Part shown: in pieces, positions 36,024 to 45,835 of the stretch
Layout: each line of letters opens with the position of its first letter
Numbering within the stretch: the stretch's first letter is position 1
Source: an uncultured SAR116 cluster alpha proteobacterium
GTDB lineage: Bacteria > Pseudomonadota > Alphaproteobacteria > Puniceispirillales > GCA-002684695
Assembly: GCA_902522415.1 (NCBI GenBank)
Contig: CABYVI010000002.1
Coordinates: forward strand, 10,568 to 74,567
DNA length: 64,000 nucleotides
Reading direction: 5' to 3'
Notes under the pieces: model-generated
The model's input: only the letters and a program-made list of their open reading frames with translations
Told to the model about the DNA's origin: nothing
Database searches by the model: none
Made by a program: the position numbers and the translations under genes

Positions 36024-37745
36024 TTGACACTGACTGGGGAAACAATGAATAGAACAATTGACTTCAATATAATTATTAGACAACTCCGAATTTACACTGG
36101 AATATTATTATTTTTTTATTCTTTCACGCATCTCCTTAATCACTCAGTTAATGTGATTTCAATTGAAGCTGCAGACTTTGTAAGAGAGAATTATTTTCAT
36201 TTATTATGGAAAAACTCTATTGGATATTTTCTTCTTTATGCATCTTTAACTATTCATATAATTTTAGGCTTTTATTCAATATTAACAAAAAAATCTTATA
36301 AAATAACTGGCAGGGAATGGGTCCAAATTTTATTTCCAGTTTTAGCATTGCTTGTCTTGTTGCAACATATAGGTGGTGGATTTATTCTATCTCGTTTTGA
36401 TGTTGATATAAAATATTCACTTTTATACGCATTGCTTTCATCTGATCCAAATGAGTTAGTTGCAGGTGCTGTTTTATTTTCTCTAATGGTAATATTTATA
36501 TGGGTACATGGGGTTATTGGGATACATGGTTTATTAAAGTTTAACTTCAAATCATACCACAAGTTTATGTTTGGGTTTAAATTTATTTACTGGTTTGTAC
36601 CAATAGGTGCAATTTTAGGATTTATATTCGGTTTAAAAGAAACAAGTGTTCTTGCAACAATTGAAAATTTAAAAGGAAACGAAAATTTTATAATGTCTTT
36701 TTTTGCTGCCATACCTCAAGAAGCATTTGCTTATTTAATGCCTGTAGAGCCTTATGTCATGAACAATTACCCTATTTTTGTATTAACAGTATTGGTATTA
36801 TGTATTCTAAATGTTGTAAGATCAAAATATTTTGGTAGAGTTAAAATTTCTTACCCAGGGGGTAATGAATATTCTGTTCCAAGAGGAACAACAGTATTAG
36901 AAGCTAGTAGGCTTGCTGGCATACCTCATGTTTCAGTTTGTGGAGGCAAAGGTAGATGTACGACTTGTAGAGTAAAAATAGTTTCTGGTAATAATAACGT
37001 TTCTGAACCTAATGCGCATGAAACAAAAATAATAAAGAGATTAGGTTTTGATAGCGATGTGAGGTTAGCATGCCAATTAAAAGTATCAAAAAACCTTGGT
37101 ATTCTTCCTCTTATAAATCCTGAGACTAAAGAAATTAAAGCAAGAACACCAGTTGGTTTAAGTGGAAAAGAAAAGGAGACAGTTGTTGTTTTTATTGATC
37201 TTCGTGAATTTACCAAGTTATCTGAGAAGAAACTACCTTATGATGTAGTTTATATTTTAAATAAATATTACAGTGTTTGTGGTGAAATTATTGAAAACAA
37301 CAAAGGAAGATTAGATAAGTTTATTGGGGATGGCATAATGGCTATTTTTGATGGAGCCGAAACTTCATCAGAAAATTGCAAAAATTCAATTAAAGCAGCT
37401 CAACAAGTTTCAATTGCCATTAAGGAGCTAAATGCACAAATAAAGAATGACTTTTCTGAGGAATTAAGATTTGGTATCGGAATTCACGTTGGAAATACAA
37501 TTGTTGGCATGATGGGATATGGCAACACTGTTACGGAAACTGTTGTTGGCGATAACGTAAATATTGCAAGCAGACTTGAAGAATTAAATAAGAAGTATGG
37601 TTCAGAGTTAGTAGTGTCAAAGGATGTACTTGACGCCGCAAAAGTTAATTCAAAACAGTTTAATAATGAGATGATTAAAATTCGTGGTAGAGAAAATGAA
37701 TTACAAATTTTCAGTCTTGAAAATGCTTACAATTTAAAGTTATAA
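36024..37745 (+). CDS. Membrane-anchored [2Fe-2S] ferredoxin-domain / class III adenylate cyclase fusion protein
   Basis: N-terminal ~280 aa has about 6 TM helices with conserved His (FTHLLNH, LTIHIILG, LLQHIGGG, WVHGVIGIHG). Ferredoxin module CGGKGRCTTCRV...LACQ. Cyclase domain VVVFIDLREFTKL, KFIGDGIMAIF, VVGDNVNIASRLEE. More likely start is ATG at 36045 (GGGGA 6 nt upstream) than the track TTG. Confidence 0.85.
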   Translation: MTLTGETMNRTIDFNIIIRQLRIYTGILLFFYSFTHLLNHSVNVISIEAADFVRENYFHLLWKNSIGYFLLYASLTIHIILGFYSILTKKSYKITGREWVQILFPVLALLVLLQHIGGGFILSRFDVDIKYSLLYALLSSDPNELVAGAVLFSLMVIFIWVHGVIGIHGLLKFNFKSYHKFMFGFKFIYWFVPIGAILGFIFGLKETSVLATIENLKGNENFIMSFFAAIPQEAFAYLMPVEPYVMNNYPIFVLTVLVLCILNVVRSKYFGRVKISYPGGNEYSVPRGTTVLEASRLAGIPHVSVCGGKGRCTTCRVKIVSGNNNVSEPNAHETKIIKRLGFDSDVRLACQLKVSKNLGILPLINPETKEIKARTPVGLSGKEKETVVVFIDLREFTKLSEKKLPYDVVYILNKYYSVCGEIIENNKGRLDKFIGDGIMAIFDGAETSSENCKNSIKAAQQVSIAIKELNAQIKNDFSEELRFGIGIHVGNTIVGMMGYGNTVTETVVGDNVNIASRLEELNKKYGSELVVSKDVLDAAKVNSKQFNNEMIKIRGRENELQIFSLENAYNLKL

Positions 37746-37751
37746 ATATGT

Positions 37752-38069
37752 ATGTATGTAAGAGTATTGCAGATAAAATTTCCTAATGAATTAGCAAAAA
37801 AATCTGTTATTGCTTTATCTCGTAATGTAACTAAAGATCATTTCAAAAATGGATTAATCTTAAGACTTCATACTGACATATCATCGAATTCATCAATGAT
37901 AATTTTATTATGGAAAACTAGGGAACTTTTTGAAACTGCTAGAAAAGTATTTGGGGACAGGTTTGTAGCTGAAGTAAAAGAAATGGGAGGCATTATTACA
38001 ATTTCAGAAGGACCATCAGAAGTTGATATTGCAAAAGAAATTGATTTTTCAAAATTTAATCAATTCTAG
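37752..38069 (+). CDS. Hypothetical 105-aa protein, possibly dimeric alpha-beta-barrel (ABM-like) fold
   Basis: Starts 6 nt after the cyclase stop on the same strand. Pattern MYVRVLQIKF ... LLWKTRELFE resembles ABM-like proteins only weakly. Confidence 0.4.
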   Translation: MYVRVLQIKFPNELAKKSVIALSRNVTKDHFKNGLILRLHTDISSNSSMIILLWKTRELFETARKVFGDRFVAEVKEMGGIITISEGPSEVDIAKEIDFSKFNQF

Positions 38070-38072
38070 AAT

Positions 38073-38552
38073 TTAATTACTTTTCAAAGCCTTAATAGTT
38101 GCTTGTTGTTTTTTTATCATTTCTTCGAGACGTTTAATTTTTTTTAAATTTTCTGAAATTGCTTGGTCGTCTTTTAAGTTTTTATTATCGTCAAGTGGGG
38201 CTATTTTTTCAATCTTTACAGTTGAAATATTGTTACTGGACTGTTCAAATTTTTTTTCACTTAAGTTTTTATAATTATCTAATTGAATTATTGTCCATAC
38301 AAATAATCCAAAAATAAAAATTAAGAATAATATTGTTATTGGATTTAAAATAAATTTTAAAATTCCTTCAATTATAATCTTTAAGACATAAAATGTTATA
38401 AATAGGCCAACAAAATATAATAATATTGCCCAAATTATAACAATAAAAGTATTATCTTGAAAGTTTGATTGGAAAATAGCTAATTGCCAGACATCATTGG
38501 CTAAAATATTTAAATTTAAAAATATTTTTTCAAAGTTATCAATAACACTCAT
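38073..38552 (-). CDS. Hypothetical membrane protein with C-terminal coiled coil
   Basis: 159 aa. Two to three TM helices, then a charged helical tail (KKIKRLEEMIKKQQATIKALK). Confidence 0.4.
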   Translation of the reverse strand: MSVIDNFEKIFLNLNILANDVWQLAIFQSNFQDNTFIVIIWAILLYFVGLFITFYVLKIIIEGILKFILNPITILFLIFIFGLFVWTIIQLDNYKNLSEKKFEQSSNNISTVKIEKIAPLDDNKNLKDDQAISENLKKIKRLEEMIKKQQATIKALKSN

Positions 38553-38639
38553 AACATTTATAATTGTTTTTTGGTTAAGTAATTTATAGCATAAAAATAA
38601 ATTTATTGTCTTAATTTTAAAATGAATTAATTAACATAC

Positions 38640-39065
38640 ATGATTTTCGATATTGTCATTTATTTGAATGCATGTTTAGCAGGTTCAATGTTATTTTTTG
38701 TTTCTGTTGTTTCGCCTACAGTTTTTAAAACTCTTGATAATAAAAGTTCAAGTAAATTTCTTAGAAGTATTTTCCCAAGAATATTTTTTTTTGGATTTGT
38801 TGTTTCGTTTACGTCGGCAATAATTTCTTTGTACTCTTCTAAATTTTTGGAATTTTATAGCTTGTCCTTTATCAGCTTACTTTTTCTGATTAACAGAAAT
38901 ATAATAACCCCAAAAATAAATTTTTTTAGAGATAAAGAGATTGAAGGTGATGTTAATGCACAAAAATATTTTAAATTATTGCATTTGATATCAGTCATAT
39001 TCTTTATATTAAATTTTTTAATTTTAATATTACTATTATCAAATAATTCATTTGATTTTATTTAA
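38640..39065 (+). CDS. Hypothetical 4-TM membrane protein (DUF4149/TMEM205-like pattern)
   Basis: 141 aa. MLFFVSVVSPTVFKTL ... FLRSIFPRIFFFG is reminiscent of DUF4149. Weak assignment. Confidence 0.4.
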   Translation: MIFDIVIYLNACLAGSMLFFVSVVSPTVFKTLDNKSSSKFLRSIFPRIFFFGFVVSFTSAIISLYSSKFLEFYSLSFISLLFLINRNIITPKINFFRDKEIEGDVNAQKYFKLLHLISVIFFILNFLILILLLSNNSFDFI

Positions 39066-39127
39066 ATTTTTAATAAATTAATTTTATTTTATTTTATATT
39101 CTAATGACTAATTAAGAGTTCTTATTT

Positions 39128-39481
39128 GTGTTTAGTTTTATTGGTAAAAATGATTATACATCAAAGTGCACTAAAATTCTTAATAAAGAAACAGGGCTTG
39201 ACCCACTTATAACTCAAGCATTTATTGAAGATTTTAGACCAATTTTTGATGAAGAATATGATAAAAATAATGACCCAGAAGAAACCTTGACTAATGCTGG
39301 CATATTGGTTTTGCAGCATGTAATTGAAGAAAATATTAAAGAAATAAAAGTTAGTAATAAATGTAGAATTTATGATAAAGTTGCTGTTAAAATTAATCAA
39401 TGGTCATTAACAAAAACCAATTTAGATATTTCTTTAAAAAATAAAATTGAAAAAAATTTAGAGCCTTTTATAAGGAAATAA
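39128..39481 (+). CDS. Hypothetical cytoplasmic protein
   Basis: 117 aa, GTG start, acidic/helical, no motif recognised. Confidence 0.35.
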   Translation: MFSFIGKNDYTSKCTKILNKETGLDPLITQAFIEDFRPIFDEEYDKNNDPEETLTNAGILVLQHVIEENIKEIKVSNKCRIYDKVAVKINQWSLTKTNLDISLKNKIEKNLEPFIRK

Positions 39482-39544
39482 TAAAGATTTTATTATTAAA
39501 ATTTTAGTCTCATTTTATATAATTATAATAAACTATAAAATTTA

Positions 39545-39805
39545 ATGTTGAATTTTGTCTTAAGTTTAAATTTCTTTGATTGGATAGGTATTTTAGGTTC
39601 ATTACTGATTGCAGGAGCATATTATGGGGTATCGAACAACATTTTTTCACCTAAAAAGCTTGTTTATCATTTAGTAAATTTAATTGGATCAGTTTTAATT
39701 CTTTTGTCTCTTTACTATAAACCTAACCCTGGAGCCATAATGATCGAATTACTTTGGATTTTTATAGCTGCTTTAGGTATTTATAATTATTATTTTAGTA
39801 ATTAA
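39545..39805 (+). CDS. Small 3-TM membrane protein
   Basis: 86 aa. DWIGILGSLLIAGAYYG ... YHLVNLIGSVLILLSLYY ... ELLWIFIAALGIYNY; topology like small PQ-loop/SemiSWEET-sized proteins. Confidence 0.4.
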   Translation: MLNFVLSLNFFDWIGILGSLLIAGAYYGVSNNIFSPKKLVYHLVNLIGSVLILLSLYYKPNPGAIMIELLWIFIAALGIYNYYFSN

Positions 39806-39856
39806 ATTTATAAACTTGGTTGATTGAAAATTATCTTTATCAAAATTCATTAACAC

Positions 39857-39881
39857 ATCAATAATAAGATTTATTATTGAT
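39857..39881. terminator. Perfect 11-bp-stem hairpin between convergent genes (weak, all A/T except one pair)
   Basis: ATCAATAATAA gat TTATTATTGAT. No adjacent U-tract, so terminator function is uncertain. Confidence 0.25.
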
Positions 39882-39918
39882 TGTTACGCTAAATATAAAT
39901 CACTTTTTTTATTCATTT

Positions 39919-40491
39919 TTACATTTTAAAGAGCATACTTAAAAGCCTTGCATATTCTCTAGCATCATCTATGGCTTTATGAGTATGTTTACAATTATCA
40001 TGTAAATCTTTTGGATAATTTTCTCTTATTACGTCTTTATAATCTTTTTTAAGAACTGCTGATGCGTACGATTTAATGTCAAATGCTGGCATATGTTGAA
40101 AAAAAGGCTGATGATAAGGGTAGTTATATAAACGACCACGAAGAAATTTTAAAATGTACCAGTTAACCCAAGCGAAATCTAAAGGTGCAGGATGAGCCGC
40201 CATTATCCTTGGGCTAGGCAAACTTAAGAGCCAATCACCAAACCTTGTCATTGCCTCACCTGGTGAGAATGGATTCTGTCTACAATATTCAAGAGCTTCA
40301 GGTGCTTCAGTATTAAACCAGTCCATAGTTACAGGATCAGGATGAGAATTTTTCAGAGGTTTTAAATTGATTTCAAAATCTCCTAACTCAATCCCATTTT
40401 TATTTATAGCAACAGCTCCTAAACTTATCATTGAATGAATTCCTGGAAGTGGACCATCAAATTCAACATCTATAACAATATAATTACTCAT
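39919..40491 (-). CDS. DEDD-family 3'-5' exonuclease (DnaQ/RNase T-like), stand-alone
   Basis: 190 aa. ExoI YIVIDVEFDG, ExoII-like AHPAPLDFAW, ExoIII HKAIDDAREYA (DEDDh type). Confidence 0.75.
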   Translation of the reverse strand: MSNYIVIDVEFDGPLPGIHSMISLGAVAINKNGIELGDFEINLKPLKNSHPDPVTMDWFNTEAPEALEYCRQNPFSPGEAMTRFGDWLLSLPSPRIMAAHPAPLDFAWVNWYILKFLRGRLYNYPYHQPFFQHMPAFDIKSYASAVLKKDYKDVIRENYPKDLHDNCKHTHKAIDDAREYARLLSMLFKM

Positions 40492-40620
40492 TTAAATATC
40501 TCATAACCCAACCCTAAAACCAAATACATTAATTGTGAATACATTATCAAAAATCTTCTTATAAAAAAGAGATTTAACTCTTGTTTTGCCTACATTCTTG
40601 CTTTAATAATCTATTCGTGT

Positions 40621-40709
40621 GCGAGCGTGGCGGAATCGGTAGACGCACTGGACTTAAAATCCAGAGAAAGGTAACTTTCGTGGGAGTTCAAGTCTCCCCG
40701 CTCGCACCA
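40621..40709 (+). tRNA. tRNA-Leu (anticodon UAA), CCA encoded
   Basis: Hand fold. Acceptor GCGAGCG/CGCTCGC, anticodon stem CTGGA/TCCAG with loop CTTAAAA, long variable arm GAAAG GTAA CTTTC, T-arm GGGAG TTCAAGT CTCCC, discriminator A, CCA. Confidence 0.95.
40651..40709 (+). repeat. attL-like copy of a 59-nt perfect direct repeat (3' two-thirds of tRNA-Leu)
   Basis: GACTTAAAATCCAGAGAAAGGTAACTTTCGTGGGAGTTCAAGTCTCCCCGCTCGCACCA, identical to 42402-42460. Confidence 0.9.
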
Positions 40710-40975
40710 CAATCTGACCAATCGTATATCTCATAAAGGTTTCCATATATTAAGTGTTTCAGACTTAAAATGAAAAAACAAGGGTTTTTTCTTCCTCTGG
40801 ACTTTTGAAAGTTGTCTCTGGTAGTCCAGAGAATTGTCTTAGGACTTTTTTAGTCTAGAGCAAATGACGAAAAAAAAGGTCTACAAGATTTCTCTCATAG
40901 ACTTTTTTAAGCTAAGTCTGCTAACCTAGCTTAATTAATATATATTAATTATCATTTAAATTGTTAATTTTTAAT

Positions 40976-41173
40976 TTAAAACCAAAAATAAATTAAAAAA
41001 AGACCAAAACCTAACCCAACTCCAAACAAAACCCATAAATTTGCAACATTTAAGTCTTGAAGCTCTTCTTTAGTTTTAGATATACTTAATCTTACTAATG
41101 AAATTGCACTAAACAAGCCAATACATAGAAGGACAATTCCAACTATAAATAATAAGTCAACAAAGCTAATCAT
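40976..41173 (-). CDS. Hypothetical 65-aa two-TM protein
   Basis: Overlaps the upstream PH-domain gene by 4 nt (ATGA-type coupling). Two hydrophobic helices. Confidence 0.4.
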   Translation of the reverse strand: MISFVDLLFIVGIVLLCIGLFSAISLVRLSISKTKEELQDLNVANLWVLFGVGLGFGLFLIYFWF

Positions 41174-41580
41174 GAATAATCTATCTCCTGTGTCCCTGAT
41201 TTTTTACGAGATTTTTCAACAAAACCTCTAAGTAAATCCATCACCTTTTCTGGTTCTTTAATCCCTACCATTGTAATTCTTGGGGTGCTTTTATCAGATG
41301 AAATAATCGTTAAATTTCCTAAACCAAAAATTCTTAATAAAAATGGCTTAAAAATACTATAATCTCTAATTCTATAAAGTTCTATCTCTTCAATAGATTG
41401 AGACAGAATTCCAGACTTTATAAAAAATCTTTCGTCGGAGAAAGAGTATATACGAAATCTTGTATTAAGATACCTATATATTGGTAAAAATAGAGTCCAA
41501 AAAAATAAAAAAAAGTAAGGAATATTTACTAATTGTGATGTTCTCCCCTTCCATTTCAAGTTTTTGTCCATTTTTACCAT
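41170..41580 (-). CDS. Bacterial PH-domain (bPH_2 / YdbS-YdbT-like, DUF304) membrane protein
   Basis: 136 aa. N-terminal TM hairpin, then YSFSDERFFIKSGILSQSIEEIELYRIRDYSIFKPFLLRIFGLGNLTIISSD, the bPH_2 pattern. Confidence 0.6.
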   Translation of the reverse strand: MVKMDKNLKWKGRTSQLVNIPYFFLFFWTLFLPIYRYLNTRFRIYSFSDERFFIKSGILSQSIEEIELYRIRDYSIFKPFLLRIFGLGNLTIISSDKSTPRITMVGIKEPEKVMDLLRGFVEKSRKKSGTQEIDYS

Positions 41581-41661
41581 TTATTTTAAATAAAACTTTA
41601 TTTATTTTAATAAATTTCATAACTTTTTACTAATTATTAATTATGAATTTGGGAGATTAAA

Positions 41662-42144
41662 ATGAGTGCAGAATCTAATGAAAGAATAATAACGACATTT
41701 GAAAAAAAAGTAGGTTCTGATTTAACTAAGTTAACTTTAACAAATTATAGAGTATCCCTAGAATCTACAGGTTCATGGTTTAAAAAAGTGAAAGGTGTAC
41801 AAAGCGTAACCTTAGAATCAGTCCACAGTGCAAATTTAGTAGTTAGACATAACCCATCTTATTTAGGTTTATGTATTATAGCTGCACTGCTATTATATAT
41901 TGCTTATTCAGAGTATAGTTATTTAGCACCAAGTCTAATAGGCTTTAGTGGTGGAGAGATAGCAACATTGATTGGAGCTATTCTGTTTTTAATAGGGTTA
42001 TTAGGTTATTTTAGAAGTAGAAGTTCTGGAATAAGCATAATGTCAAGGGGAAACACCATATCTATGGATGCTAGAAATGTTAAGGGGGATGCTTATGACT
42101 TCGTTTCTAAAGTAATGCAGGAGATAGCTAATTCAAAAAAATAA
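41662..42144 (+). CDS. Hypothetical membrane protein, PH-like strands interrupted by a TM hairpin
   Basis: 160 aa. LTLTNYRVSLES, SVTLESVHSANLVVR, two TM helices, SGISIMSRGNTISMDARN, C-terminal helix. Confidence 0.4.
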   Translation: MSAESNERIITTFEKKVGSDLTKLTLTNYRVSLESTGSWFKKVKGVQSVTLESVHSANLVVRHNPSYLGLCIIAALLLYIAYSEYSYLAPSLIGFSGGEIATLIGAILFLIGLLGYFRSRSSGISIMSRGNTISMDARNVKGDAYDFVSKVMQEIANSKK

Positions 42145-42401
42145 CTTATTTTAAAATTCATTAACTTTAATTATCGTAAACAATAAAAATTTTTATTCTT
42201 AAAAATACTTATAATTTAAAATTGTAGAATTTTATCAAAAAAGATGTCCAATTGATGTCCATAAACATCCGTGGCGATTGAACTTTTTATTTATAGATTT
42301 TTGATTCAATTCTCCTAAAAAAATTTATCTTTTTTTGGGTTTTGAGGGTGTACTTAGCTCACAGACTAAATCGGTAGAAAGCTGGACTACTCTTTCACTT
42401 T

Positions 42402-42460
42402 GACTTAAAATCCAGAGAAAGGTAACTTTCGTGGGAGTTCAAGTCTCCCCGCTCGCACCA
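42402..42460 (+). repeat. attR-like copy of the 59-nt tRNA-Leu 3' repeat
   Basis: Perfect copy of 40651-40709. Just upstream is degenerate similarity to the D-arm/anticodon stem (AATCGGTAGAaaGCTGGACT) separated from the repeat by 13 nt. No matching 5' acceptor strand, so it is not a functional tRNA. Confidence 0.9.
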
Positions 42461-42532
42461 CTTCAAACATAAAAATTCAAACACTTTTACTTTTACCATT
42501 GTCTTAAGAAGTAATTAGGTTATTTAAGATTT

Positions 42533-42868
42533 ATGAAAATTTTTATATTCGGATTAGTAATAGCTTTCTTCTTTTTTAAAATTAGTTATTGGTCAAATGC
42601 ATATGGTAACATAGTTGAACTTGGACCAATGGAAAAAACTATTGGTGATATATCTTCTACAGAATGCAAAGAAATTTTAAATAGTGGAAACATTATGGAA
42701 TATCCTGAATTAACAAAAGGTCAGCAATTTTGGGTAATTATTTATAATTATAAAGAATATTTTGTAAAAAAATTCCAAGTAACAAGAAGTACTGGAATGT
42801 CAGGTGCTTTACCGGTGATGGCTTATACTTGTCACGGTGCTCAAGAGCTAATACCTATTGCCAAATAA
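42533..42868 (+). CDS. Hypothetical small secreted protein
   Basis: 111 aa, signal-like N-terminus (IFIFGLVIAFFFFKISYWSNA), two Cys. Confidence 0.4.
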   Translation: MKIFIFGLVIAFFFFKISYWSNAYGNIVELGPMEKTIGDISSTECKEILNSGNIMEYPELTKGQQFWVIIYNYKEYFVKKFQVTRSTGMSGALPVMAYTCHGAQELIPIAK

Positions 42869-43209
42869 TCAAAAAAAAAAAGATTTATCTATAATTTATT
42901 TTATTTTAATAAATTTTAAATAAATTGAATTATACTTTAATATTCTTCTCTCAAATTGAGTCTCGATTTCTCATGACACTAAACCCATTGGGTTGCAGCC
43001 CTTCAAACTCTCTAAATAAAGTCGCAACCCACTGATGTACAAAATCTATAAAACGTGCGTATTGACAGATTTATAGGATTATAAGATTGTTGCTATTGTT
43101 GGATTGTGAATGTACTTGGTGCGTATATGAAGTAAAACTTTCACCCTACTCAACACATATATAATTCAAATAATTTCAATTTTAACTATTTGATTTTGGG
43201 GCATATACT

Positions 43210-43710
43210 TTGGTTTATAATGAATTAAATTGGGAAACTGAAAATTTTATTCTTAAAAGATTTAAATTAAAAATCTTCAAAGTTATAGAAAATCAAAACT
43301 TAATTGAAATACCTAATAAATGGCAGCTTTTATTATCTGAAGGATATAATATAGTTTGGAATAATTTGAAATATAATAGACTTTTTAAAGAGAATGACAG
43401 TGTTTGGGTTGTTACAGGCTGGAAAAAAACAATTATACATTCTAGCAACCAAAATCTATTTAATAAAAATGCATTAGAAAATGATAAATTTGAACCAAGA
43501 ATCTTCATTGATACAAATCAAGATGATAATTTTAAATCTTTAAAAACAAATGTTGGTGATTTGGAAATATTCATGGAAGAAATGTGGAAAAATTATTTAA
43601 AAACAAAAAATATTGAGTATTTAGCAAAGGCTTCAGATATGGCACCTTTTTTTGGTCAAAAAGAAATTTCTTTAGAAATTGGAAAATTACTGAGAAGTAT
43701 TAAAAATTAA
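43210..43710 (+). CDS. Hypothetical protein
   Basis: 166 aa, TTG start, no recognisable motif. Confidence 0.35.
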   Translation: MVYNELNWETENFILKRFKLKIFKVIENQNLIEIPNKWQLLLSEGYNIVWNNLKYNRLFKENDSVWVVTGWKKTIIHSSNQNLFNKNALENDKFEPRIFIDTNQDDNFKSLKTNVGDLEIFMEEMWKNYLKTKNIEYLAKASDMAPFFGQKEISLEIGKLLRSIKN

Positions 43711-43711
43711 T

Positions 43712-43984
43712 TTATTTGTTTAAGAGTTTATTAAAAGCTTGGTTAAATCTAATTTTATCAATTTTTTTTGTTATTTTAACAGTCATTATTTTATCATCAA
43801 TTTCAAGATCATTTTTACTTAAAAATTTATTTAAAAGTTTTTCTTTTTTTATATTATTTTTGATAAAATCTTTTTTCATGATGAATATATTTCTAGATAA
43901 TCTTTTATAACTATACAATTTTAAATTAAAAATAATAAATTTTAATAATTGTATTTTATAAAATAGTAAATAACTTAATATCAT
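43712..43984 (-). CDS. Doubtful small ORF (if real, more likely the 55-aa form starting at 43879, MKKDFIKNN)
   Basis: Lys/Ile-rich, low complexity. Could be a chance ORF in AT-rich DNA. Confidence 0.2.
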   Translation of the reverse strand: MILSYLLFYKIQLLKFIIFNLKLYSYKRLSRNIFIMKKDFIKNNIKKEKLLNKFLSKNDLEIDDKIMTVKITKKIDKIRFNQAFNKLLNK

Positions 43985-44393
43985 GACTAAAAAAATTATT
44001 TATTTTTTTATAATTTTTGTTTTTTTTATAACGCCAGCATTAAGCCAGAGTTACTTAAAAAAATTCAAATGCGTTGAAACCAATGTATTTACAATTTATT
44101 CTGAGGGTTTTTCTTATGAAAAAGATGTTAATAATATTTATTTTTTTAATTTAACTAATAGCCATTTAGTTTTTATGAAGGGATCAGTTGGTAGTAAAAA
44201 CTATATTAAATTTCCTATAAAGAATAGAAATGGTAAATATATCAAAATTTATCAAGATAATATTAATTTAAGCATCCAATTAGGACCATTACAAAATCAA
44301 CAAAAAAATAAAGACTTATTTTATCTAAAATACTCTAGAAATGATATCTTTTATTCAGAGATGTCATACTCAGAATGTGAACTAGTTAAGTAA
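43983..44393 (+). CDS. Hypothetical secreted protein
   Basis: 136 aa, signal peptide (IIYFFIIFVFFITPALS), two Cys. Confidence 0.4.
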   Translation: MTKKIIYFFIIFVFFITPALSQSYLKKFKCVETNVFTIYSEGFSYEKDVNNIYFFNLTNSHLVFMKGSVGSKNYIKFPIKNRNGKYIKIYQDNINLSIQLGPLQNQQKNKDLFYLKYSRNDIFYSEMSYSECELVK

Positions 44394-44425
44394 AAAATGC
44401 TTAGAAGTATAGATTAGTTTCCAAA

Positions 44426-45835
44426 TTAAATTTTTGGTTTTTTATCCCAAAAACAAAATTCCTTCTCCAGAGAGAAAGCCGCTCTTAAAAGTAAGTCTTC
44501 ACTGAATGGCTTTCCAACCAATTGAATACTCAATGGGAGCCCATTTTCGTCAAAACCCATTGGAATACTTATTGCGGGTAGACCCAAATAATTTATTGGT
44601 CGAGTATTATGGCCTATTCTTCTAACTAGATGTGCAGCTTTATCATTGGCACCAAAATCACTTTCTTTGATTGAAGGAATTAAACACGGCCAAACTGGGG
44701 TAATAAAAAGATCAACTTCTTCAAAAACTTTTGAAACAATATTTTTGATAAAACCAATTCTATATTTTTTTAGTTTTTTGTACTCTTCTGAGCTAGTAAA
44801 AACTCCTGATAAAATCCTCATTAATGTTTGCTGATTAAAAGATTTATTTTTTTCTAAAGCTATTTTCTTGTGAGATAGAGCTGCTTCAGTAGAAATCAAA
44901 AGCATATTCAAATCATTTGCAGTTTCAATATTTGGAATTCTGATATCTTTTGTAAAAGCACCAAGTTTTTCACATATTGAAAAAACCTTAACTGTATTAT
45001 CACTTACAATTTTATCACTACCTTCTAAAAAATAGTTCTTTGGTAAACCTATCGATATTTTTTTAATACCTTTTTTCATTTCGGTGAGAAAATCTGGTAT
45101 ATTTATCTTTACCGACAAATTATCATTTTTATCTTTACCAGAAATAATTTGTAAAACTTTTGCTGCGTCTTCCACACTTCTTGATAGTGGGCCAACTGTA
45201 TCAAGTGAGGTTGACAATGGGAAAACTCCATCTCTGCTAACCAGACCTTGCGTTGGTTTTAGGCCAAATAAGCCACATGCTGACGCTGGCAACCTCACAG
45301 ATCCACCAGTATCAGTTCCTAAAGCTACAGGTATAATTCCAGATGCAACAATAGCAGCAGAACCAGAAGAGGATCCTCCACACACATAAGTTCTATTCCA
45401 AGGATTTTTAGGAGTTCCTGCATATTCATTATGGCCAGTAACTCCAAATGCATATTCAACCGAAACTAATCTACCACAATCTATAGAGCCTGCCTTATCT
45501 AAAAGTGAAATAACTTTAGCAGTTTGATCTGATAATAAATTTTTTCGGCTTTCTGAACCACCCTCATTAGGCCATGCTTGTCCACCCTTTAATTTTCTTT
45601 GAAACAACTCCTTGTGAGCCAAAGGAACACCAAACAGAGGTAAATTAAAGTTTTTTTCACTAAAAATTTTATTCCCCTGAAAAATAGCAAAATCTTTATC
45701 TGTAAATCTTAATGCATTAAGGGTTTTACCTATACTCTCAAGTTGATCAATTGTACTTTCTAAAATTTTAAAAAAATTGTTTTTATTTTCAAAAATTAAA
45801 TCTTTTATTTCAGATATAGATTTAAAATTTATCAT
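44426..45835 (-). CDS. Amidase-signature (AS) family amidase (GatA-like)
   Basis: 469 aa. AS motif GGSSSGSAAIVASG, GTDTGGSVRLPAS. Confidence 0.85.
   Translation of the reverse strand: MINFKSISEIKDLIFENKNNFFKILESTIDQLESIGKTLNALRFTDKDFAIFQGNKIFSEKNFNLPLFGVPLAHKELFQRKLKGGQAWPNEGGSESRKNLLSDQTAKVISLLDKAGSIDCGRLVSVEYAFGVTGHNEYAGTPKNPWNRTYVCGGSSSGSAAIVASGIIPVALGTDTGGSVRLPASACGLFGLKPTQGLVSRDGVFPLSTSLDTVGPLSRSVEDAAKVLQIISGKDKNDNLSVKINIPDFLTEMKKGIKKISIGLPKNYFLEGSDKIVSDNTVKVFSICEKLGAFTKDIRIPNIETANDLNMLLISTEAALSHKKIALEKNKSFNQQTLMRILSGVFTSSEEYKKLKKYRIGFIKNIVSKVFEEVDLFITPVWPCLIPSIKESDFGANDKAAHLVRRIGHNTRPINYLGLPAISIPMGFDENGLPLSIQLVGKPFSEDLLLRAAFSLEKEFCFWDKKPKI

What the first reader, a model, noticed from the sequence alone, without database searches (positions are those of the whole stretch)
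40621..42460. 59-nt perfect direct repeat of the tRNA-Leu(UAA) 3' end brackets a 1.7 kb integrase-less mini-island with arm-like short repeats at both ends
40651-40709 equals 42402-42460 (59/59). This is the classic attL/attR signature of site-specific integration into a tRNA 3' end, and tRNA genes are known integration sites for temperate phages and islands in marine alphaproteobacteria. Just inside attL are three (G/A)GACTTTT motifs (40799, 40842, 40899), a TTGTCT(C/T)(T/A)GG pair and an 18-nt palindrome TCTCTGG-TAGT-CCAGAGA (40815-40832). About 150 nt inside attR are two GATGTCCA repeats (42243, 42254). Upstream of attR the tRNA D-arm/anticodon-stem sequence is also recognisable in degenerate form, interrupted by 13 nt. 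No recombinase is encoded, so the element is either a decayed remnant, or a satellite/cassette mobilised in trans by an integrase encoded elsewhere.
Basis: partly seen in the sequence, partly recalled or inferred. Interest (0 to 1): 0.65.

Follow-up and report, generated by a model that had tools for sequence, protein, structure and literature searches.

The report
Integrase-less islet at tRNA-Leu hotspot
A 1.7-kb three-gene insert with no recombinase of its own sits in the anticodon-loop site of tRNA-Leu(UAA) of a low-GC marine SAR116 bacterium; a related environmental contig lacks it exactly, and it is one layer of an ordinary stack of island remnants at a tRNA hotspot.

Summary
tRNA-Leu(UAA) lies at 40621-40709, and its last 59 bases plus one more base (40651-40710) recur exactly at 42402-42461 (60/60). 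These are the only two copies in the genome. The 1,691 bases between them carry three small membrane-protein genes and no recombinase.

The insert is a discrete, polymorphic unit. One metagenome contig (L063) joins the intact tRNA directly to the sequence right of the second repeat. Other contigs carry the unit, and in one it sits behind a short tRNA-end fragment in a different left context.

The locus is a stack. Beyond the second repeat lies a decayed remnant of a second element family. Intact members of that family, in a congener and in metagenome contigs, encode a DUF6538-type tyrosine integrase right after this tRNA and duplicate only 18-27 bases of the tRNA end.

The 60-base block begins in the anticodon arm and the short blocks begin at the T-loop, which are the two canonical crossover sublocations. 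No phage or viral contig shares the core.

Best reading: an att-flanked, integrase-less unit of the CIME type, most likely a decayed resident that can be lost across its repeats. Mobilisation in trans is possible but not shown. This is a new member of a known kind, of modest interest.

The parts
40621..40709 (+). tRNA-Leu(UAA), intact, with encoded CCA. In the integration model its 3' part from 40651 onward was supplied by the element.
   Evidence: ARAGORN; Rfam RF00005, 63.4 bits. The sequence is 100% identical in four congeners (G001, G003, G004, G007) and in 15 metagenome contigs.
40651..40710 (+). Left copy of the 60-base identity block (attL core). It starts in the 5' strand of the anticodon stem and runs to CCA plus one base.
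   Evidence: the repeat finder family D2, 60/60.
40711..40975 (+). ALPHA arm, the non-coding left end of the unit (P'-type arm). It contains GACTTAAAAT (40762-40771), a copy of the anticodon-loop region; the hairpin GAAAAAAC-AAGG-GTTTTTTC (40772-40791); CTCTGGAC half-site copies at 40795(+), 40824(-) and 40853(-, one mismatch); the palindrome at 40815-40832; and a terminator-like hairpin for the minus-strand cargo genes (40902-40879).
   Evidence: The arm is conserved next to the tRNA or to a tRNA-end fragment in L039, G004:C36, G002:C34, L054, L062 and L064 (alignment A1). A 52-base block, 40754-40805, is identical in L039. Motifs. The GACTTAAAAT match has p about 0.016.
40976..41173 (-). Cargo gene 1: 65-aa small hydrophobic protein. 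Its start overlaps the stop of gene 2.
   Evidence: ORF list. Weak DUF350 hit only. 100% aa identity in L039. The same gene order is seen in L040 and L041 at 68% nucleotide identity.
41170..41580 (-). Cargo gene 2: 136-aa membrane-anchored bacterial PH-domain protein (bPH_2).
   Evidence: Pfam PF03703, E 5.7e-14; PHROG 3707 'membrane-flanked domain', E 7e-9; no PADLOC hit.
41662..42144 (+). Cargo gene 3: 160-aa protein of unknown function, with a weak, sub-threshold DUF6232 hit.
   Evidence: Only 6 relatives were found among 5.8 billion proteins, all on short marine metagenome contigs.
42145..42401 (+). P1 arm, the non-coding right end of the unit. It contains GATGTCCA twice (42243, 42254); a degenerate tRNA 5' part, AATCGGTAGA (42369-42378) and CTGGACT (42382-42388); and a 13-base interruption (42389-42401) directly before the core.
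   Evidence: 10/10 match, 0 of 500 shuffles reach it. The same degenerate 5' part and interruption lie before the 60-base block of G002:C34.
42402..42461 (+). Right copy of the 60-base identity block (attR core). In the integration model this is the displaced original 3' part of the host tRNA.
   Evidence: 60/60. Not called as a tRNA by ARAGORN or Rfam.
42462..42484 (+). First ~23 bases of the BETA arm. In intact relatives this sequence lies between the tRNA end and the integrase start. Here the rest, integrase included, is gone.
   Evidence: Alignment A2; junction catalogue.
42533..42868 (+). 111-aa ORF of unknown function inside the older BETA/P2 remnant.
   Evidence: 31-36% identity to a 115-aa ORF in the G004 array. 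Present in the empty-site contig L063.
42975..43130 (+). P2 arm, the conserved non-coding distal end of the BETA-type island family. It contains GATGTACAAA (43034) and GGTGCGTATAT (43118-43128).
   Evidence: Homologous to the sequence directly left of tRNA-end fragments in G004:C23 (twice) and G002:C34 (alignment A3); in L039 only its last ~25 bases match (GGTGCGTATATAAGGGAAATCA). The motif GATGYACAAA is shared with BETA arms, where copies are 12 bases apart, and occurs only twice in the 64-kb window.
43131..43157 (+). Decayed short tRNA-end fragment (10/18 of the core), the outermost and oldest att scar of the stack.
   Evidence: Recognisable only by alignment to P2+core of relatives (A3). 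Not significant against the tRNA alone. Synteny with G004 resumes at 43211.

Best explanation
The 60-base direct repeat marks the two junctions of a 1,691-base unit (ALPHA arm, three cargo genes, P1 arm) that entered tRNA-Leu(UAA) by tyrosine-recombinase-type site-specific recombination, with crossover in the anticodon loop. The element brought its own copy of the tRNA 3' part, which now completes the gene. The host's original 3' part was pushed to 42402-42461.

The unit has no recombinase. It is therefore an att-flanked, integrase-less element of the CIME (cis-mobilizable element) type. Most likely it is a decayed, vertically inherited resident rather than an active satellite.

It is the tRNA-proximal layer of a tandem stack. 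Distal to it lies the remnant of a second island family, BETA/P2. That family uses the T-loop/acceptor sublocation of the same tRNA, with an 18-27-base identity block, and its intact members carry a DUF6538-type tyrosine integrase directly after the tRNA.

The unit can be absent exactly at the repeats. That state could be a site that was never occupied, an excision by a related integrase acting in trans, or RecA-type recombination between the 60-base repeats.

Shown: the repeat, the unit's boundaries in two contexts, the empty site, the two block classes, the integrase in relatives, and the decay series.

Inferred: the crossover position, the direction of events, and who catalysed them.
For: - The repeat is exact and unique to these two places.
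- Empty site: L063 has the leader and intact tRNA (98% to 40588-40709) joined directly to 42462-42877 (92%).
- Occupied relatives: L054 matches at 97% over 40328-41793. L039 matches at 92% from exactly 40691 onward. Upstream, L039 has an ABC-ATPase gene, a P2 arm and only an 18-27-base tRNA-end fragment. The unit's left edge therefore coincides with the tRNA end in two different contexts.
- A second unit, G002:C34, has the same arms but different cargo: a MORN-repeat gene in about 0.85 kb. Its 60-base block keeps the window-type variable arm although G002's own tRNA-Leu differs, so it is not a local copy of G002's gene.
- Two block classes: the 60-base block starts in the anticodon arm, and the 18-27-base blocks start at the T-loop. 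These match the known sublocations A and T/J (Islander, PMC4383910).
- L060 has a 5' tRNA fragment ending at position 38. The 3' block starts at position 31. The overlap, GACTTAAA, lies in the anticodon arm and loop.
- An integrase sits at this tRNA in G002:C47 (DUF6538 + PF00589) and in L058 and L055.
- Remnants that keep only BETA plus up to about 26 integrase codons occur in G007, G002:C34 and L050-L053; G004:C23 and L057 keep BETA with little or nothing of the gene.
- BETA and P2 share GATGYACAAA repeats.
- Paralogous integrases in congeners each sit beside another tRNA.
- Stacking with older elements pushed outward, fragmented integrases and scattered partial tRNAs is described for Prochlorococcus islands (bioRxiv 10.1101/2020.12.28.424599). 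CIMEs are defined in PMC5704250.
Against: - No ALPHA/P1-type element with an integrase was found. I searched 8 genomes of the genus, 192 genomes of the order, 15 metagenome contigs and IMG/VR. Descent from an autonomous element is therefore inferred by analogy with the BETA/P2 decay series.
- The proximal ALPHA sequence resembles the tRNA trailer of the apparently unoccupied G003-type locus. ALPHA could thus be partly native-like sequence.
- The unit diverges from L039 (92%) about as much as the flanks diverge from L063 (90-92%). That argues for old, vertical residence. A neutral 60-base scar would then be expected to have picked up about 2 changes (my estimate: P of none about 0.1), yet it has none.
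- The attR junction itself rests on this assembly alone. Logan contigs are too short to span a 60-base repeat.
- The own genome is only 61% complete, so 'no integrase' is not proof of absence.
Confidence: 0.75

Rival explanations
1. The unit is an active satellite or cassette. ALPHA/P1 units would be a family of integrase-less mini-elements, excised and integrated at the anticodon loop of tRNA-Leu(UAA) by an integrase encoded elsewhere (another island or a helper), and they would carry exchangeable cargo.
For: - Two units share homologous arms but carry unrelated cargo: the bPH trio in the window and a MORN gene in G002.
- The window's 60/60 repeat is undecayed.
- ALPHA holds three extra copies of the anticodon-arm half-site CTCTGGAC, and P1 holds GATGTCCA twice. 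Both could be recombinase-binding sites.
- Presence/absence falls exactly at the repeats.
- The anticodon loop is also used from the 5' side in L060.
- Trans-mobilisation of CIMEs is documented in streptococci (PMC5704250).
Against: - No helper integrase with this sublocation was found, and none at all in the 61%-complete own genome.
- No circular junction or excision evidence could be obtained.
- Divergence of the unit matches that of the flanks, so there is no sign of recent horizontal movement.
- None of the 15 exact-59-mer metagenome hits is a P1-core junction.
- The same cargo trio occurs at 68% identity without these arms.
Confidence: 0.18
2. No mobile element is involved. The second block would be a pseudogene left by an old duplication of the tRNA-Leu gene, with the genes between being ordinary flexible genes exchanged by homologous recombination.
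For: - The right copy is preceded by a degenerate tRNA 5' part, so it looks like a whole decayed tRNA gene.
- Proximal ALPHA resembles a native trailer.
- The composition of the insert is like that of the genome.
Against: - Identity switches from 100% to degenerate exactly at the anticodon arm, a canonical crossover sublocation. The same sharp edge, with a homologous 13-base interruption, is seen in G002.
- G002's block is not derived from G002's own tRNA.
- No flanking sequence is duplicated.
- The unit recurs behind a different left context (L039), with its edge at the tRNA end.
- The same tRNA demonstrably receives integrase-bearing islands.
Confidence: 0.05
3. Assembly artefact. The repeat would let the assembler join pieces that are not adjacent in the cell.
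For: The genome is a fragmented, 61%-complete assembly. A related single-cell assembly contains a palindromic chimeric contig (G002:C47).
Against: - The attL side (exonuclease gene, tRNA, ALPHA, cargo) is reproduced at 97% by an independent metagenome contig, L054.
- Cargo running into P1 and the first 43 bases of the core is reproduced by a Logan contig, X2 record 16, 42083-42444.
- G002 has the same P1-core-BETA order.
- The right flank continues in L063.
Confidence: 0.02

Closest known systems
CIMEs (cis-mobilizable elements) and tandem accretion at att sites, as described for streptococcal ICE/IME sites at tRNA-Lys and other genes (review PMC5704250)
   Same: The element is bounded by attL and attR but lacks integration and transfer genes. 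It sits in tandem with other decayed elements at the 3' part of a tRNA gene. The stack grows by repeated site-specific integration.
   Different: - Descent of the ALPHA/P1 unit from an autonomous element is not shown.
- No conjugation genes are seen anywhere in the stack.
- The host is a streamlined marine alphaproteobacterium.
- Two element families use two different sublocations of the same tRNA.
- Excision in trans is untested.
Tycheposon-type tRNA-linked islands of Prochlorococcus (Hackl et al., bioRxiv 10.1101/2020.12.28.424599)
   Same: This is a marine, streamlined host with a tRNA-proximal hotspot. Successive integrations push older elements outward. Partial tRNAs and fragmented integrases are scattered through the island, and most cells lack an intact element.
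   Different: The integrase here is a DUF6538 + Phage_integrase type. No tycheposon replication module (primase or helicase) was seen in the held pieces. Membership in the tycheposon family was not tested and is not claimed.
Islander-type genomic islands in tRNA/tmRNA genes (Hudson, Lau & Williams, PMC4383910; sublocations after Williams 2002, cited from that paper's reference list)
   Same: A regenerated tRNA gene plus a displaced 3' fragment in direct orientation mark the ends. Block lengths fit the anticodon-loop (A) and T-loop/junction (J) crossover classes.
   Different: Islander requires an integrase gene inside each island, and this unit has none. At 1.7 kb it is also much smaller than typical islands.
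Integrating T7-like pelagiphages (HTVC019P type), named as closest known for the tRNA-Ser scars in this same window
   Same: tRNA-gene attachment with long identity blocks, in marine Alphaproteobacteria.
   Different: No phage gene, phage record or viral contig matches the core, the arms, the cargo or the integrase.

Membership tests
tRNA-integrated genomic island (Islander definition) | Intact tRNA gene plus a cognate displaced fragment in the same orientation on the same replicon | tested here: met
   tRNA at 40621-40709 and a 60/60 fragment at 42402-42461, both on the + strand.
tRNA-integrated genomic island (Islander definition) | Integrase gene (PF00589, non-Xer) inside the island | tested here: not met
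   No recombinase domain in the three ORFs. No PF00589 anywhere in the 61%-complete genome.
CIME (cis-mobilizable element) | Retains attL and attR | tested here: met
   Perfect 60-base direct repeats. The absence in L063 falls exactly at the repeats.
CIME (cis-mobilizable element) | [quoted passage not shown] | tested here: inconclusive
   Such genes are absent. That they were ever present is not shown for ALPHA/P1: no integrase-bearing relative was found. For the neighbouring BETA/P2 remnant the loss is shown, since relatives keep only the first ~19-26 integrase codons.
CIME (cis-mobilizable element) | Can be excised or mobilised by a related element's integrase | not testable with these tools
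   Only short assembled contigs of public runs were available. No junction reads could be examined.
Temperate phage or prophage remnant | Phage structural or replication genes, or an attP-bearing phage genome sharing the core | tested here: not met
   - PHROGs gives only a 'moron' membrane-domain hit.
- INPHARED hits are phage-encoded tRNA-Leu genes only.
- IMG/VR has no match to the core or arms. The two 18-mer hits are unrelated high-GC tRNA genes.
Tycheposon | Tycheposon-type integration plus replication module in intact members | not tested
   Only the integrase and an ankyrin-repeat gene of the intact G002 island are on the held contig. No comparison with tycheposon proteins was run.
Integron gene cassette | attC recombination site and an IntI platform with attI | tested here: not met
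   The boundaries are tRNA fragments, not attC-type imperfect palindromes. The associated integrase is DUF6538 + Phage_integrase beside a tRNA.

The most novel reading that the evidence does not exclude
ALPHA/P1 units are a family of integrase-less cargo cassettes of low-GC SAR116. Their attachment region (P1 + 60-base core + proximal ALPHA) would be a decayed copy of an entire tRNA-Leu locus: the 5' half, the 3' half and the trailer. A separately encoded integrase specific for the tRNA-Leu(UAA) anticodon loop would move them in trans. That would give a streamlined genome a low-cost way to swap single genes at one tRNA.
Probability: 0.15. Interest if true: 0.55.

Novelty: new member of a known kind. 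Interest (0 to 1): 0.3.

Why it matters
The locus shows how a streamlined marine SAR116 lineage turns over flexible genes. One tRNA-Leu gene receives elements at two different sublocations. Integrases are then lost, and tiny att-flanked gene packets remain that are present in some populations and cleanly absent in others. This extends the picture known from Prochlorococcus islands and from streptococcal CIMEs to another abundant ocean clade. It also gives concrete junction sequences for counting occupied and empty sites in metagenomes. It does not reveal a new mechanism.

Tried and rejected
- **Phage origin.** I searched INPHARED with blastn. I made eight IMG/VR scans: six DNA patterns from the 59-mer, shorter cores, the P2+core and the ALPHA block, and two protein queries (the bPH protein and the G002 integrase). 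The only hits were unrelated tRNA genes.
- **Metagenome scan for the P1+core junction** with a degenerate pattern: 0 hits. The exact 59-mer returned 15 contigs, all whole tRNAs and none a P1 junction.
- **Empty-site or circle joints in public runs.** Only Logan contigs were on offer. They are too short to cross the repeat, and the listed joints are low-complexity noise.
- **ALPHA arm elsewhere in 192 genomes of the order.** It is found only beside this tRNA within the genus.
- **Further tRNA-like scars** in 42462-44430 and in the cargo: nothing significant by local alignment against shuffles. The outer scar at 43131-43157 is supported only by homology to relatives.
- **5' tRNA fragments upstream of the tRNA** in the window and in 11 relatives: found only in L060.
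- **Fetching the 19.8-kb parent contig of L051:** the record is not held.
- **Defence function of the cargo:** no PADLOC hit.
- **Known RNA family in 38000-45000:** only the tRNA.
- **Plain tandem duplication** was considered and rejected. No flank is duplicated, G002's block differs from G002's own tRNA, and the identity edge sits at the anticodon arm.
Full report
**1. Observation**

The window is AT-rich (about 30% G+C). It belongs to a 1.2-Mb, 92-contig, 61%-complete assembly. Exact-pattern hits in named genome records identify two congeners. One is an 'uncultured SAR116 cluster alpha proteobacterium' single-cell genome, and the other is a 'Candidatus Puniceispirillales' MAG.

tRNA-Leu(UAA) lies at 40621-40709. 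Its 3' part recurs exactly: 40651-40710 equals 42402-42461, 60/60. No other copy exists in the window or in the genome. Sequence identity stops at once on both sides.

The 1,691 bases between the copies hold three ORFs:
- 65 aa, on the minus strand;
- 136 aa, on the minus strand, bPH_2 domain (E 6e-14);
- 160 aa, on the plus strand, with only a weak DUF6232 hit.

None has a recombinase domain.

**2. The insert is a discrete, polymorphic unit**

An exact scan of metagenome contigs with the 59-mer returned 15 contigs, all carrying the whole tRNA.

- **L063, the empty site.** It matches the window's leader and tRNA at 98%. It then continues directly with 42462-42877 at 92%, so it lacks exactly one repeat plus the insert. 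It also lacks 42878-43527.
- **L054, occupied.** It reproduces exonuclease gene, tRNA, ALPHA and cargo at 97%.
- **L039, occupied in a different context.** I found it through the 160-aa protein. It carries the same three genes at 92% nucleotide identity, and the match to the window begins exactly at 40691. Upstream it has an ABC-transporter ATPase gene, a conserved non-coding piece, and only GGGAAATCA + GTCTCCCCGCTCGCACCA in place of the tRNA.

The unit's left edge therefore coincides with the tRNA end in two different contexts.

**3. Junction catalogue in the genus**

To the right of a tRNA end I find two recurrent sequences.

*ALPHA* corresponds to window 40711 to about 40905. It occurs after the tRNA in the window, G004:C36, L054, L062 and L064. 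It occurs after a short tRNA-end fragment in L039 and G002:C34.

*BETA* is about 64 bases long and runs into the start codon of a 387-aa gene with DUF6538 and Phage_integrase domains in G002:C47.
- The integrase is intact as far as the contig reaches in L058 (145 aa, 84% identity) and L055.
- In G007, G002:C34 and L050-L053 only BETA plus up to about 26 integrase codons remain. G004:C23 and L057 keep BETA with little or nothing of the gene. The break points differ between remnants. This is a decay series.
- The window keeps only the first ~23 bases of BETA (42462-42484).

To the left of a tRNA end there are again two kinds.

*P2* is about 190 bases of non-coding DNA ending in GGTGCKTATATAAGGGAAATCA. 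It occurs in G004:C23 (twice) and G002:C34; L039 keeps only its last ~25 bases. It occurs in decayed form in the window at about 42975-43130, followed by a 10/18 scar of the tRNA end at 43131-43157 (alignment A3).

*P1* is a degenerate tRNA D-arm and anticodon-stem sequence, then a 13-base interruption, then the 60-base block. It occurs in the window and in G002:C34.

BETA and P2 share the motif GATGYACAAA. In several arms two copies lie 12 bases apart. The motif occurs only twice in the whole 64-kb window. This is what the two arms of a single attP would look like.

Paralogues of the integrase in congeners each sit beside another tRNA: Leu(GAG), Asn, Arg, Phe and Ser(GGA). A P2-like piece lies about 0.9 kb beyond the integrase at the Leu(GAG) sites.

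**4. Reading of the window**

From left to right the window reads as follows:

| Segment | Coordinates |
|---|---|
| tRNA-Leu(UAA) | 40621-40709 |
| ALPHA/P1 unit | 40711-42401 |
| 60-base block | 42402-42461 |
| BETA/P2 remnant (23 bases of BETA, a 111-aa ORF, P2) | 42462-43130 |
| Decayed short tRNA-end block | 43131-43157 |
| Conserved flank (synteny with G004 resumes) | from 43211 |

The order differs in other genomes. G002:C34 and L039 have a BETA/P2 element proximal to an ALPHA unit. That is expected if each newcomer enters at the intact tRNA and pushes the older layers outward. The same process is described for Prochlorococcus islands and for CIME/ICE accretion.

**5. Mechanism**

The 60-base block starts in the 5' strand of the anticodon stem and runs to the end of the gene. 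The short blocks start at the T-loop. These are the recognised crossover sublocations in tRNA genes: A (anticodon loop) and T/J (T-loop or junction) (Islander paper).

L060 adds independent support for an anticodon-loop crossover in this genus. It has a 5' fragment of the tRNA (positions 1-38, 35/38) lying 1.7 kb upstream of the intact gene. The 3' block begins at position 31, so the two blocks overlap in GACTTAAA.

ALPHA also carries three more copies of the anticodon-arm half-site CTCTGGAC and a 10/10 copy of GACTTAAAAT (p about 0.016). These may be recombinase-binding sites or older scars. That part is inference.

The reconstructed attP (P1 + core + proximal ALPHA) looks like a decayed copy of a whole tRNA-Leu locus. 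Proximal ALPHA shares ATATA..AGTGTTT.CAGAYTTAAAAT with the trailer of the apparently unoccupied G003-type locus.

**6. Remnant or active cassette?**

*For activity:*
- Two ALPHA/P1 units share their arms but carry unrelated cargo (the bPH trio here, a MORN gene in G002).
- The window's repeat is undecayed.

*For an inert, inherited remnant:*
- The unit differs from L039 by about as much (92% identity) as the flanks differ from L063 (90-92%).
- No integrase-bearing ALPHA/P1 element and no helper were found.
- The neighbouring BETA/P2 remnants show that small integrase-less packets arise here by deletion.
- The cargo trio also exists without these arms in more distant relatives.

I favour the remnant reading. 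Loss in L063 could have come from recombination between the repeats, or the L063 site may never have been occupied.

**7. Cargo**

The three genes are conserved, at 95-100% amino-acid identity against 92% nucleotide identity in L039. They encode small membrane-associated proteins. One has a bacterial PH domain. No defence-system match was found. Their function is unknown and has no bearing on how the unit moves.

**8. Verdict**

The feature is an ordinary tRNA-linked integration hotspot with tandem accretion and an integrase-less, att-flanked unit. It is a new member of a known kind, now seen in low-GC SAR116. Earlier notes of this scan describe similar stacks in other marine bacteria. I treat those as leads only.

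Noticed in passing
L060 (Ga0115011_10051988), tRNA-oriented coordinates 66-103 and 1812-1900: A 5' fragment of tRNA-Leu(UAA) (positions 1-38, 35/38) lies 1.7 kb upstream of the intact gene. It brackets a 105-aa gene (a paralogue of window 37752-38069) and a 273-aa secreted protein, with no integrase. The 5' side of the tRNA therefore also receives insertions at the anticodon loop.
   Followed up: partly
L056 (Ga0208764_10033301), about 1933-2096 in tRNA orientation: The P2 arm lies in inverted orientation directly after the tRNA, in place of most of BETA. This may be an inversion between the shared arm repeats. It is unexplained.
   Followed up: no
window 39919-40491 (-): A stand-alone DEDDh/RNase_T-type exonuclease lies immediately upstream of the tRNA. 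It is present in L054. In G003 and L061 the corresponding gap is only about 40 bases, and G004 and G007 carry other genes there. It hits the PADLOC 'Effector Exonuclease' model (E 5e-21). The upstream side of the tRNA is therefore variable as well.
   Followed up: partly
window 42191-42235 versus 37699-37746: A 45-base AT-rich stretch inside the P1 side of the unit resembles (82-85%) the region just upstream of the 105-aa ORF at 37752 and of its paralogues, which sit next to the tRNA in relatives (L050, L053, L057). It may be a shared promoter or regulatory piece.
   Followed up: no
G002:C47 (L036) 2165-2254 versus the window tRNA: G002's own tRNA-Leu(UAA) differs from the sequence shared by the window and four congeners. 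It has compensatory changes in the anticodon stem and a different variable arm. The contig is also a palindromic chimera (inverted halves), typical of single-cell amplification.
   Followed up: partly
G000, whole assembly: No PF00589 match at all, not even XerC/D, in the 61%-complete genome, whereas congeners have 2-6. Incompleteness is the probable cause.
   Followed up: no
window 42878-43527 versus L063: There is a second indel between the window and the empty-site contig. L063 lacks P2, the decayed scar and the first ~318 bases of the 166-aa ORF (43210-43710). The edges are not att-like.
   Followed up: no
Congener loci L076-L083: The DUF6538-type integrase family is abundant in the order, with up to 11 matches per genome. 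Many matches lie at contig ends and several have in-frame stops. In this genus each paralogue sits beside a different tRNA gene.
   Followed up: partly
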